Part shown: in pieces, positions 53,876-55,834 of the stretch | How the letters are laid out: each line of letters starts with the position of its first letter | Position numbering within the stretch: position 1 is the stretch's first letter | NCBI GenBank assembly: GCA_951406725.2 | Contig: OX597833.1 | Coordinates: 71,424,001 to 71,488,000, forward strand | Source: Octopus vulgaris | Lineage: Eukaryota | Reading direction: 5' to 3' | Length of the DNA: 64,000 nucleotides | Position numbers: made by a program

Positions 53876-55834
53876 TTTTCTTCAGTTCTAAGTCATTCAA
53901 GTCTTGGATTCTCGTTGTCCTGGGTGCACTCCATGAATTCCTATCTGTTTGGTAGACATCAGCAAATAAATGCTTTGCTGATTATGTGTATTGTGGTGGT
54001 GCGATGTGGTGTGTTACACGGTGATCGCCATGGAAAGCAGGACTTGGCAAGAATTATTGTTTTTGCTGTTGTTTAACCCTAGGTTGGTTGTGATTGAGTA
54101 GACCACCGCTGAAATGTAATCTTGTCACGACACTCTTGTCATTTATTCAAACTAAGTGTATCTAAGACTACATTATCTAATGTGTCTACCTTTTATTTTT
54201 AGCGACAGAGAAGTGGTTCCCACATCTTTTCTTCTTTGTTTCTTGTGGCTCATTTTGGAGTAAATAAAATAGTTCAAGGGAAACTGTAAAGAAGTTCGTC
54301 AGATGGATTGCATCTTTTATTTTCTATCTTTTACTTGTTTCGGTCATTAGACTGCGGCCATGCTGGGGCATTGCCTTGAAGGATTTTTTTCACTGAACGA
54401 ATCAACCCCCAGGACTTATTTTCTTTTTAAGCCTAGTGTTTATTCCATTGGACTCTTTAACCAAACTGCTAAGTTTCAGGGATGTAAACACACCAGCACT
54501 TGTTGTCAAGCAGATTTTTTGAGGACAAAGCAAGCAAAATAATAAACTGGAATCCACAGCTGTATTTTAAGTATCCCTGAAAAACATTTTGTTTTTGGTG
54601 TAATTATTGCAACAAACAGCTTTCTTTCTTTCTCTAATGTTTTACATCGTTTGAGGCTTTCTGCGATTGAAACACGTTCTCTCAGTGAGTTCCATTGCAA
54701 ACCTGCACAAGTGAATGGGTGATGCAGAAAATAGGAATTCTGAAAGCAGTGTCTATGAAACTAGTTTTCAAACATCGAAAGACTAGATGGGGGCTTCCAT
54801 CAGAGTGAAATAGCAATCAAAGGGGTCTAACAGATAAAAAAAAAATGGTTGAGAATCACTGTGGTACAGAATGTGGGATGTACAGGGTATGGTACAGCAA
54901 GGTGTTATACTATGTAAAGTAGACAATGTGTATGGTTTCAACATTAAGATGTTGTTGCTTAATCCCACATCATGTTTGAGTGGATCAAAGGAATTCCAGT
55001 CATGACCACCTTGTCTTTTTAAGTGTATATCTAGGACTACATCATGCAAAATGTGATTTCTTTTCCTTTCTCACAACAGCGTAACTTGAGGAAGATTTGA
55101 CTGCTATTTCTATCTGGTACAACCTGCACATCTCTCCTGATCTCATTACACATATTGTGTCCTCTCTCATCCTTCTATCCATTCCAGTAACCATTCTGCC
55201 TATTTCTTCCGTTCGTTGACTCGTAGTTATTTAAGACAATCTTTAACCGCATCATTAGTTTGATTTGGAGGAAGGGGTCGTGGCCGGAGCCTCGCAAGGC
55301 TGTGACTCCTTCCTCCGGGTCAAATTAATGAGAAAAACAAACACAGATACAAAACAAACCGCAAAAAAAAATGGAAAGAGGAGGAGGGTGAGTGATGGCG
55401 AATCTATGACACACTTATCAGCAGTGTCACTCACCGCAGGGTTGAGGTGACACGTGGCACATTGAAAGATAAAAGGGAAAAAATAAAACAAATATAATGT
55501 AATGTCATTTTATGAAAGGTTTATCCAGAAACATTTGTTTAAAATCGAAATACATGTATGTATGTAACGCTTCAGTAACAGGAGGATACATACATACAAA
55601 TATACATACATACATACATACATACATGCATGCATGCATACATACATGCATACATATATATACATACATACATACATACATACATACATACATACAGGCA
55701 TACATACATACATACATACATACATACATACATAAACACACATACATACATACATACATACATACATACATACATACATACATACATACATACATACATA
55801 CAAATATACATACATACATACATACATACATACA

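What the first reader, a model, noticed from the sequence alone, without database searches (positions are those of the whole stretch)
55252..55331. Fully paired 80-nt hairpin whose every imperfection is G-U: candidate cephalopod microRNA or other structured RNA
Seen: arm 55252-55285 pairs with arm 55298-55331 at all 34 positions (26 Watson-Crick, 8 G-U) around a 12-nt loop, in sequence that is unique within this window. A decaying DNA palindrome should give G-U and A-C about equally plus some transversions. Getting 8 of 8 G-U on one strand has roughly a 1 in 128 chance even counting transitions only. Known: a ~33-35 bp stem with a loop of at least 10 nt is the Drosha substrate geometry, and coleoid cephalopods have many lineage-specific miRNA families. 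Inference: a + strand RNA hairpin under selection, with 5p near 55263-55285 and 3p near 55299-55321. An alternative is a retro-inserted fossil of an A-to-I edited hairpin.
Basis: partly seen in the sequence, partly recalled or inferred. Interest (0 to 1): 0.8.

Follow-up and report, generated by a model that had tools for sequence, protein, structure and literature searches.

The report
Wobble-only RNA hairpin in octopus DNA
An 80-base stretch of octopus DNA folds into a perfect hairpin on one strand only; this points to an RNA origin, but nothing yet shows it is a working microRNA gene, and it may be a copied-back RNA fragment.

Summary
55252-55285 pairs with 55298-55331 at 34 of 34 positions (26 Watson-Crick, 8 G-U) around a 12-nt loop. 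The + strand folds at -53.3 kcal/mol (z -8.3), the - strand at -36.1. Judged against 327 substitutions in 15 SINE copies of this window, eight changes that all keep pairing on one strand have a chance of about 1-2 in 10,000. The one-strand RNA signature is therefore real.

The microRNA reading is unproven. There is no Rfam family and no UG, UGU or CNNC motif. No read, orthologue or copy-number data could be reached.

The G-U pairs sit in two triplets (p about 0.007). A 31-nt A/C-rich tail follows the hairpin. A 12-nt direct repeat (A9TGG) brackets a 514-nt non-coding unit that ends in that tail. The repeat is only suggestive (control p 0.006-0.1).

My best reading (0.38) is a retroposed RNA copy whose wobble pattern was set at the RNA stage. 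An in-place microRNA or hairpin-RNA gene gets 0.2, and a chance palindrome 0.17. The window is octopod.

The parts
55252..55285 (+). 5' arm of the hairpin (34 nt). It carries the G of 4 wobble pairs (55258, 55276, 55280, 55282) and the U/T of 4 others (55264-66, 55281).
55286..55297 (+). 12-nt apical loop. RNAfold adds a 2-bp mini-stem inside it.
55298..55331 (+). 3' arm of the hairpin (34 nt), pairing 34 of 34 with the 5' arm.
55332..55362 (+). A/C-rich tail directly after the hairpin. Together with the A9 run that follows, 55332-55372 holds 28 A, 8 C, 3 G and 2 T in 41 nt. It looks like an (A3-5 C)n simple-repeat tail rather than a decayed pure poly(A).
54837..54848 (+). Upstream copy of the 12-nt direct repeat A9TGG, a candidate target-site duplication.
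   Evidence: control
55363..55374 (+). Downstream copy of the same 12-nt direct repeat. It starts where the tail ends.
   Evidence: control
54849..55251 (+). Body of the putative retroposed unit. It is non-coding, with stops in all six frames. A 76-nt patch (55047-55118) is 70% identical to 47442-47517.

Best explanation
The hairpin is the 3'-terminal stem-loop of a non-coding unit of about 0.5 kb (54849-55362). The unit was copied from an RNA into this octopod genome in + orientation by a non-LTR (target-primed) reverse transcriptase.

Because the sequence went through an RNA stage on the + strand, its pairing rules are RNA rules: Watson-Crick and G-U only. The wobble pattern was then set before insertion. 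One route is selection on the source RNA's stem, as in the 3' stem-loops that stringent-type LINE proteins bind. The other is ADAR deamination of a perfect duplex (A to I, read as G), which would explain the clustered wobbles.

The copy is young enough to have taken no disruptive change since. It could still be cut by Drosha or Dicer if transcribed, but that is not shown.

Shown: the hairpin, its strand asymmetry, the tail, the direct repeat, and the absence of an ORF. Inferred: retroposition, the RNA-stage origin of the wobbles, and youth.
For: (1) Pairing is 34 of 34 on + only, with 8 G-U, 0 A-C, 0 transversions and 0 indels. In the local neutral spectrum, 15 SINE copies over 3646 aligned sites give 327 substitutions: 104 G-U-type, 93 A-C-type and 130 transversions, plus 46 indel events, with no strand bias (binomial p 0.48). 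From this, P(8 of 8 safe) is 1.0-2.1e-4 for either strand, or 3.4-7.2e-5 if no indel is also required.

(2) The A/C-rich tail begins at the base after the hairpin, on the strand on which the hairpin is perfect.

(3) A9TGG occurs at 54837 and 55363. Only 7 runs of A>=9 exist on the + strand of the 64 kb, and only these 2 are followed by TGG.

(4) The unit has stops in all six frames.

(5) The wobbles form runs of 1, 3, 1, 3. P(at least 2 runs of at least 3) is 0.0072 and P(at least 4 adjacent pairs) is 0.037. Clustering fits an enzymatic footprint, and weak triple wobbles are not what selection for a stable stem would favour.

(6) If every wobble arose A>G, the ancestral stem has 38.2% GC against 38.4% for the window. 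If every wobble arose C>T, it has 61.8% GC with 7 CpG, in a window with CpG o/e 0.70.

(7) Stringent-type LINEs need a 3' stem-loop, bound by ORF2, next to a repeat tail (PMC4176376, abstract and passages). An RTE LINE is active in octopus (PMC9115989, passages).
Against: The direct repeat is weak evidence. With the same geometry, 611 of 6270 anchors (9.7%) in this repeat-rich window have some non-microsatellite 12-mer repeat, and 30 of 5000 (0.6%) have a homopolymer-rich one. I also found it post hoc.

No second copy of the hairpin or the unit exists in the window. No tRNA-like head or known RNA family was found. The abundant SINE here ends in (TA)n, not an A/C tail.

A 34-bp perfect stem is much longer than the LINE 3' stem-loops I recall.

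The ADAR neighbour test is not significant: an A with a 5' G changed in 1 of 6 cases, against 7 of 15 for other A's (Fisher p 0.34).

The direction of each change (A>G or C>T) cannot be known without a relative. The clustering p-values are also post hoc.
Confidence: 0.38

Rival explanations
1. A microRNA (or short hairpin-siRNA) gene transcribed here on the + strand. Selection for pairing tolerates only G-U intermediates. Drosha would cut about 11 bp above the base, giving 5p near 55263-55285 and 3p near 55299-55322.
For: The 34-bp stem, 12-nt loop and unpaired flanks in the 121-nt fold match the recalled pri-miRNA geometry. Pairing is strand-specific and all changes are pairing-safe. The sequence is unique in the window. 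Octopuses have 90 novel miRNA families, and species-specific ones were left out of that count by design (PMC9699675, passages). 12 of the 13 weak Rfam hits on the hairpin are on the + strand, and 10 of those 12 are to miRNA-type models.
Against: No family match: the best scores are 28.4 against a gathering score of 80, 25.8 against 66, and 24.4 against 60, with 0 matches at gathering score in the whole window. There is no UG at -14, no UGU/GUG in the loop and no CNNC within 30 nt downstream. Curated animal miRNA hairpins usually carry mismatches and bulges (recalled), whereas this stem has none. Triple tandem wobbles are odd for a selected stem. The prior is low: 164 annotated genes per octopus genome. 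No reads or orthologues could be examined.
Confidence: 0.2
2. An inverted repeat transcribed in place and edited by ADAR. A-to-G DNA changes then accumulate preferentially at the edited adenosines ('hardwiring'), so only G-U pairs appear on the transcribed strand. No retroposition and no small-RNA function are needed.
For: Under this model 8 of 21 ancestral stem A's changed, in clusters, and the A>G model gives a genome-typical ancestral GC. At edited sites in fly and human, SNPs are 3-15 times more frequent and G is virtually the only alternative allele (PMC7186786, abstract). Octopus editing is concentrated in intronic and 3'UTR hairpins (PMC9699675, passage).
Against: There is no evidence that this site is transcribed or edited. 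The neighbour preference is not significant. The model needs the 8 changes to be A>G, which is untestable here. It leaves the tail and the direct repeat unexplained. The published effect is not shown for cephalopods in what I read.
Confidence: 0.1
3. A DNA palindrome (inverted duplication) with no RNA role. The 8-to-0 split is chance, found because many hairpins were inspected, or it reflects a strand-biased mutation process.
For: The first stage read an unknown number of windows, and a per-hairpin chance of 1-2e-4 can be met in a genome of gigabase scale (size recalled). Four of the 8 changes would be CpG to TpG under the C>T model, the commonest change in the SINE control. G-T is also the least costly mismatch in single-stranded DNA: the + strand folds at -23.6 and the - strand at -17.7 kcal/mol with DNA parameters.
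Against: The SINE copies in this window show no strand bias, 104 against 93. Also 130 of 327 substitutions are transversions and there are 46 indel events, yet the stem has none. Only one other long complex hairpin exists in the window, and it has mixed G-U and A-C.
Confidence: 0.17
4. A miniature DNA transposon (MITE or foldback remnant): two 34-bp terminal inverted repeats around 12 nt.
For: The shape is that of an inverted repeat. The window is rich in mobile elements.
Against: There is no direct repeat immediately outside the arms; the flanks read ...GCA and GAG.... There is no second copy in the window. A wobble-only pattern is not expected for terminal repeats. 80 nt is very small for a MITE (recalled).
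Confidence: 0.05

Closest known systems
Animal pri-/pre-microRNA hairpins (MirGeneDB-type, including the lineage-specific octopus families of Zolotarov et al. 2022, PMC9699675)
   Same: A single hairpin with a stem of about 34 bp, a loop of at least 10 nt and unpaired flanks, stable on one strand, in an octopod genome.
   Different: The stem has no mismatch or bulge at all. None of the UG, UGU or CNNC motifs is present. There is no family hit, and no expression or conservation data.
3' stem-loop plus simple-repeat tail of stringent-type LINEs and their partner SINEs (UnaL2, ZfL2; PMC4176376 passages; PMC1636434, start of abstract in a search listing only)
   Same: A stem-loop on the RNA sense strand sits directly upstream of a short-repeat or A-rich tail, the unit is bracketed by a short direct repeat, and it is non-coding.
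   Different: The stem is far longer and more regular than those I recall. No partner LINE or other copy was found in the window. The two RT remnants in the window do not carry it.
ADAR hyper-edited inverted-repeat duplexes (clustered A-to-I in perfect dsRNA; PMC4365171 and PMC5850729 seen in a search listing only)
   Same: Every imperfection can be read as A>G on one strand, in both arms and in clusters. The 4 A's within 8 nt of the stem's 3' end are untouched.
   Different: This is DNA, not a transcript, so a route back into the genome (retroposition or hardwiring) is needed and not shown. The 5'-G avoidance is not significant.
Young hairpin-RNA or inverted-duplication loci that feed Dicer (endo-siRNA hairpins; recalled)
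   Same: A near-perfect duplex that arose from an inverted duplication.
   Different: Those I recall are much longer than 34 bp, and no reads are available here.

Membership tests
microRNA gene (MirGeneDB criteria; the criteria themselves are recalled from Fromm et al. 2015, which I did not read) | Reads of 20-26 nt from both arms | not testable with these tools
   No small-RNA data could be reached.
microRNA gene | 2-nt 3' offsets of the 5p/3p duplex (Drosha and Dicer cuts) and a homogeneous 5' end | not testable with these tools
   This needs read stacks.
microRNA gene | At least 16 paired nt between the arms and a loop of at least 8 nt | tested here: met
   34 of 34 positions are paired and the loop is 12 nt.
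microRNA gene | Processing motifs: basal UG, apical UGU/GUG, downstream CNNC. These are helpful but not obligatory. They are listed in PMC6943042. | tested here: not met
   None lies at the predicted positions, and there is no CNNC in the 30 nt after the predicted 3p cut.
microRNA gene | Membership of a described family | tested here: not met
   Rfam 15 gives 0 hits at gathering score in the window. The best sub-threshold scores are 28.4/80, 25.8/66 and 24.4/60.
microRNA gene | Presence in a second octopus species, the rule used in PMC9699675 | not testable with these tools
   No cephalopod genome collection was on hand.
Non-LTR retroposed unit (SINE, truncated LINE or retrocopy) | A 3' tail of A-rich or simple repeats on the sense strand | tested here: met
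   55332-55372 has 28 A in 41 nt, in an (A3-5 C)n-like pattern, on the + strand.
Non-LTR retroposed unit | Flanking target-site duplication | tested here: inconclusive
   There is an exact 12-nt repeat at 54837 and 55363, the only two A>=9+TGG sites in 64 kb. Random anchors give some 12-mer repeat in 9.7% of cases and a homopolymer-rich one in 0.6%.
Non-LTR retroposed unit | Other copies of the family, or a source gene | tested here: not met
   There are none in this window. The genome-wide check was not possible.
Non-LTR retroposed unit | A Pol III head (tRNA, 5S or 7SL-like) if it is a SINE | tested here: not met
   ARAGORN found 0 tRNAs, and no such Rfam hit appears at E up to 10 in 54000-56600.
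MITE / foldback DNA transposon | A target-site duplication directly outside the inverted repeats, and multiple copies | tested here: not met
   No flanking direct repeat, and a single copy in the window.
ADAR-edited duplex footprint | All differences are A>G on one strand, they are clustered, and 5' G is depleted | tested here: inconclusive
   The pattern is compatible and the clustering has p 0.007-0.037. A's with a 5' G changed in 1 of 6 cases against 7 of 15 for others (Fisher 0.34). The direction of change is unknowable without a relative.

The most novel reading that the evidence does not exclude
The hairpin is a germ-line fossil of ADAR hyper-editing in a cephalopod. A perfect 34-bp duplex RNA was deaminated at 8 of its 21 stem adenosines. 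It was then written back into the genome, either by retroposition (tail and target duplication still visible) or by hardwiring at the edited sites. That would be direct evidence that the exceptionally heavy RNA editing of coleoids leaves heritable marks in their DNA. A bolder add-on is that the copy is now a young octopus-specific small-RNA precursor.
Probability: 0.15. Interest if true: 0.7.

Novelty: new member of a known kind. Interest (0 to 1): 0.35.

Why it matters
If the wobble-only pattern was set at the RNA stage, this locus is a small, clean example of RNA-level processes shaping octopus DNA, whether by retroposition of structured RNA or by ADAR editing. Such events may also be raw material for the unusually large set of lineage-specific octopus microRNAs, whose sources are stated to be unknown (PMC9699675, Discussion passage).

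If it turns out to be an expressed miRNA, it adds one gene to that set.

If it is one copy of a retroposon family, it is ordinary. It would still be a useful warning that 'G-U only' hairpins can be inherited from an RNA intermediate and need not be selected in place.

Tried and rejected
Known RNA family: rejected. Rfam at gathering score over the whole window gave 0 matches. E-value scans gave only generic sub-threshold hairpin matches. The stronger 'mir-297 / mir-3149 / mir-466' matches at 55550-55980 are TG/TA microsatellite, not the hairpin.

tRNA- or SINE-type head: ARAGORN found 0 genes.

Repeat within the window: none for the hairpin. The one 76-nt, 70% patch (55047-55118 against 47442-47517) stops well short of the hairpin.

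Coding reading: no Pfam family in the 7 complex ORFs between 53321 and 56682. Of the 76 ORFs scanned, 7 had hits, all at least 16 kb away. I gave Pfam 76 of the 231 complex ORFs of at least 60 aa, chosen by hand: mostly the longer ones, together with those near the hairpin.

Fishing for other copies through the protein collection: the 84-aa minus-strand ORF across the hairpin found 2 candidates and none scored. I did not search with the 63-aa plus-strand ORF.

Mirtron: by eye there are no splice sites at the hairpin ends.

Transcription-linked mutation bias as the cause: the SINE control shows 104 against 93.

Not done:
- No scan of the prokaryote-only genome contigs, nor of phages, plasmids or E. 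coli, because they are irrelevant to an octopod locus.
- No search of papers by sequence string.
- No access to MirGeneDB, cephalopod genomes, small-RNA or RNA-seq data.

Full report
**1.

Window 55252-55285 pairs with 55298-55331 at all 34 positions: 26 Watson-Crick and 8 G-U, with no A-C, no other mismatch and no bulge. The loop is 12 nt, and pairing stops at once on both sides. As RNA, the + strand of 55230-55350 folds at -53.3 kcal/mol. Shuffles give -26.7 +/- 3.2 (z -8.27), and 0 of 200 fold as well. The - strand reaches only -36.1 (z -3.27, 1 of 200), because the 8 wobbles become A-C gaps. The 80 nt alone give -52.5 kcal/mol at 52.5% GC. With DNA parameters the same asymmetry is smaller: -23.6 on + against -17.7 on -.

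**2. It is rare and unique in this window**

- Each 24-nt arm core has one match at up to 3 mismatches.
- blastn of 54700-55560 against the window finds itself, its own inverted arm, and one unrelated 33-nt hit.
- A covariance model built from the hairpin finds only the hairpin: 115 bits on +, and 36.9 bits for the same place read on -.
- A gapless scan for hairpins of at least 16 bp that allows transitions found 5651, nearly all microsatellite. Fifty passed a complexity filter. Only two are long: a 39-bp one at 62893-63001 (36 WC, 1 G-U, 2 A-C) and this one (26/8/0). The next is 23 bp.

**3. Is 8 of 8 more than chance? A local control**

The window holds a SINE-like repeat of about 420 bp in many copies on both strands. 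I aligned 15 copies, took a consensus, masked the low-complexity columns and counted changes in window + orientation.

| Quantity | Count |
|---|---|
| Aligned sites | 3646 |
| Substitutions | 327 |
| G-U-creating type (A>G, C>T) | 104 |
| A-C-creating type (T>C, G>A) | 93 |
| Transversions | 130 |
| Indel events | 46 |

There is no strand bias (binomial p 0.48) (the unmasked counts are 131/105/152). Applied to a perfect palindrome of this composition, one substitution keeps + strand pairing with probability 0.31-0.33. Eight of eight on either strand then has probability 1.0-2.1e-4, or 3.4-7.2e-5 if no indel is also required.

The caveat is that this is a per-hairpin figure, and I do not know how many hairpins the first stage saw.

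**4.

(a) The wobbles are clustered in runs of 1, 3, 1, 3. For 8 sites placed at random among 34, P(at least 2 runs of at least 3) is 0.0072 and P(at least 4 adjacent pairs) is 0.037 (post hoc).

(b) Directly after the last paired base comes an A/C-rich stretch. 55332-55372 holds 28 A, 8 C, 3 G and 2 T. It looks like an (A3-5 C)n tail rather than a decayed poly(A).

(c) The 12-mer A9TGG occurs at 55363-55374, where that tail ends, and at 54837-54848. The + strand of the whole window has only 7 runs of A>=9, and only these two are followed by TGG.

Together these features outline a 514-nt unit, 54849-55362, with hairpin and tail at its 3' end, bracketed by a direct repeat. That is the architecture left by target-primed reverse transcription. 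The unit has stops in all six frames.

I then tested how easily such a repeat arises here. With the same geometry, 1531 of 5000 random anchors have some 12-mer repeat, 502 have a non-microsatellite one, and 30 have a homopolymer-rich one. In a systematic pass the figure is 611 of 6270, or 9.7%. The duplication is therefore suggestive (p somewhere between 0.006 and 0.1), not proven.

**5. Where the window comes from, and its context**

A Helitron-like Pif1 helicase remnant (20371-21798, - strand) is 70-84% identical to Octopus bimaculoides and O. sinensis proteins. One search gave 308 proteins at E<=1e-10 among 1536 candidates, of which 120 were listed. The window is therefore octopod.

Pfam on 76 complex ORFs gave hits for 7:
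- PIF1 and Pif1_2B;
- RVT_1 four times, one of them below its cut-off;
- a sub-threshold Zip match.

All lie 16 kb or more from the hairpin. The 7 ORFs scanned between 53321 and 56682 had none. No host exon was identified, so I cannot say whether the site is intronic or intergenic.

**6. Test against known RNA families**

Rfam 15 gives 0 matches at gathering score in 64 kb. In an E-value scan of 54000-56600, 1 of 44 matches lies on the hairpin: mir-326 at 25.8 bits against a gathering score of 66. The high-scoring miRNA names lie on TG/TA microsatellite at 55550-55980. A scan of 55225-55360 alone gave 13 matches. The best are MIR5229 at 28.4/80, mir-326 at 25.8/66 and mir-750 at 24.4/60. All are generic hairpin alignments, and 12 of 13 are on +. 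ARAGORN found no tRNA.

The pri-miRNA motifs that MirGeneDB records (5' UG, loop UGU/G, 3' CNNC; PMC6943042, passages) are absent at the positions predicted from a cut 11 bp above the base. These motifs are helpful but not obligatory, and their weight in molluscs is unknown to me.

**7. Which way did the wobbles arise?**

This cannot be known without a relative, but the two extreme models differ.

| | All A>G | All C>T |
|---|---|---|
| Sites changed | 8 of 21 ancestral stem A's | 8 of 21 ancestral stem C's |
| Ancestral stem GC (window: 38.4%) | 38.2% | 61.8% |
| Other | 5'-G A's changed 1 of 6, other A's 7 of 15 (Fisher 0.34) | 7 CpG in the stem, 4 of the 8 changes at CpG; window CpG o/e is 0.70 |

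In the A>G model the neighbour effect runs in ADAR's direction (preference recalled) but is not significant. The A>G reading gives the more genome-typical ancestor, which is a weak lead.

**8. Mechanism**

The strand on which the stem is perfect is the strand that carries the tail. That is what one expects if this DNA was copied from a + sense RNA. The G-U-only pattern then needs no selection at this site, because it is inherited from the RNA.

What set it in the RNA is open. One possibility is a stem kept by selection in the source. Stringent-type LINEs need a 3' stem-loop beside a repeat tail, ORF2 binds it, and stem-destroying mutants do not retrotranspose (PMC4176376, abstract and passages). 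An RTE LINE is active in octopus (PMC9115989, passages). The other possibility is ADAR deamination of a perfect duplex, which would also explain the clustering. Octopus editing is concentrated in intronic and 3'UTR hairpins (PMC9699675, passage).

A variant without retroposition is hardwiring. At edited sites in fly and human, SNPs are 3-15 times more frequent and G is almost the only alternative allele (PMC7186786, abstract).

Against the retroposon reading:
- there is no other copy in the window;
- there is no recognisable head;
- the tail differs from that of the abundant SINE here, which ends in (TA)n;
- the stem is far longer than the LINE stem-loops I recall.

**9. The microRNA reading**

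It remains possible, and it does not exclude a retroposed origin. For it: the geometry, strand specificity, uniqueness in the window, and the large, partly uncatalogued set of young octopus miRNAs. Zolotarov et al. report 164 genes in 138 families, 90 of them novel, and a candidate had to be present in a second octopus species to count (PMC9699675, passages). Against it: no defining feature could be tested, the motifs are absent, the stem is atypically perfect, and the prior per locus is low. I put it at 0.2.

**10. Verdict**

The hairpin and its one-strand wobble signature are real. 'Candidate miRNA' is an untested label.

| Reading | Confidence |
|---|---|
| Retroposed RNA copy, wobbles set at the RNA stage | 0.38 |
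| miRNA or hairpin-RNA gene in place | 0.20 |
| Chance or DNA-level palindrome | 0.17 |
| In-place ADAR hardwiring | 0.10 |
| MITE | 0.05 |
| Something else | rest |

The decisive data are a BLAST against octopod genomes and a look at small-RNA reads. Both are simple, and both were out of reach here. Genome copy number, orthologues, MirGeneDB entries and the paper supplements all stayed unchecked.

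Noticed in passing
window 62883-63011 (arms 62893-62931 / 62963-63001): A second long complex hairpin: 39-bp arms with 36 WC, 1 G-U and 2 A-C, and a 31-nt loop. Unlike the finding it has mismatches on both strands, and its arm recurs at 62069-62132, so it belongs to a repeat. It serves as a contrast case for neutral palindrome decay.
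   Followed up: partly
window 58063-58483, 61436-61854, 34893-35313, 43711-44138, 45578-45908 (+); 15886-16278, 50783-51181, 56392-56771 (-); plus 7 partial copies: An abundant SINE-like repeat of about 420 bp with an internal CA/TA microsatellite and (TA)n ends. 15 copies were used as a neutral-substitution control. One partial copy (54327-54474) lies about 0.8 kb upstream of the hairpin.
   Followed up: partly
window 20371-21798 (-): A Helitron-like Pif1 helicase remnant (Pfam PIF1 and Pif1_2B), 70-84% identical to Octopus bimaculoides and O. sinensis proteins.
   Followed up: partly
window 28922-30000 (-) and 37842-39435 (-): Two broken LINE reverse-transcriptase remnants (RVT_1 in four ORF pieces, one below its cut-off). 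Neither carries the hairpin.
   Followed up: partly
window 55057-55079 and 55385-55393 (+): A pyrimidine tract ending in CAG about 170 nt upstream of the hairpin, and AGG|GTGAGT about 55 nt downstream (printout). This looks like the acceptor and donor of a non-coding exon of about 308 nt that would hold the hairpin; all three frames have stops. It may be chance, and the donor lies outside the putative retroposed unit.
   Followed up: no
window 55160-55185 with 55373-55398 (+): In the 401-nt fold, a CU-rich stretch upstream pairs with a GA-rich stretch downstream and encloses the hairpin. This is probably low-complexity complementarity.
   Followed up: no
window 55550-55980: A TG/TA/TGCA microsatellite gives sub-threshold Rfam hits to mir-297, mir-3149, mir-466, mir-1277 and others, up to 73.4 bits against a gathering score of 90. 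These are false miRNA look-alikes beside the real hairpin.
   Followed up: yes
window 62700-62850; 50140-50272; 44835-45151; 34589-34713; 30595-30683: Another dispersed repeat family, 79-92% identical over 89-158 nt.
   Followed up: no
window 55047-55118 and 47442-47517: A 76-nt patch at 70% identity (its core is 28 of 33), shared between the putative unit and a locus 7.6 kb upstream. It does not extend to the hairpin. It may be a fragment of an old repeat.
   Followed up: partly
window 59035-59379 (+) and 52393-52722 (-): ORF fragments that by eye resemble a mariner-type transposase N-terminus and a hAT-type C-terminal region. This is a recalled resemblance only; Pfam gave no hit at E<=0.001.
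   Followed up: no
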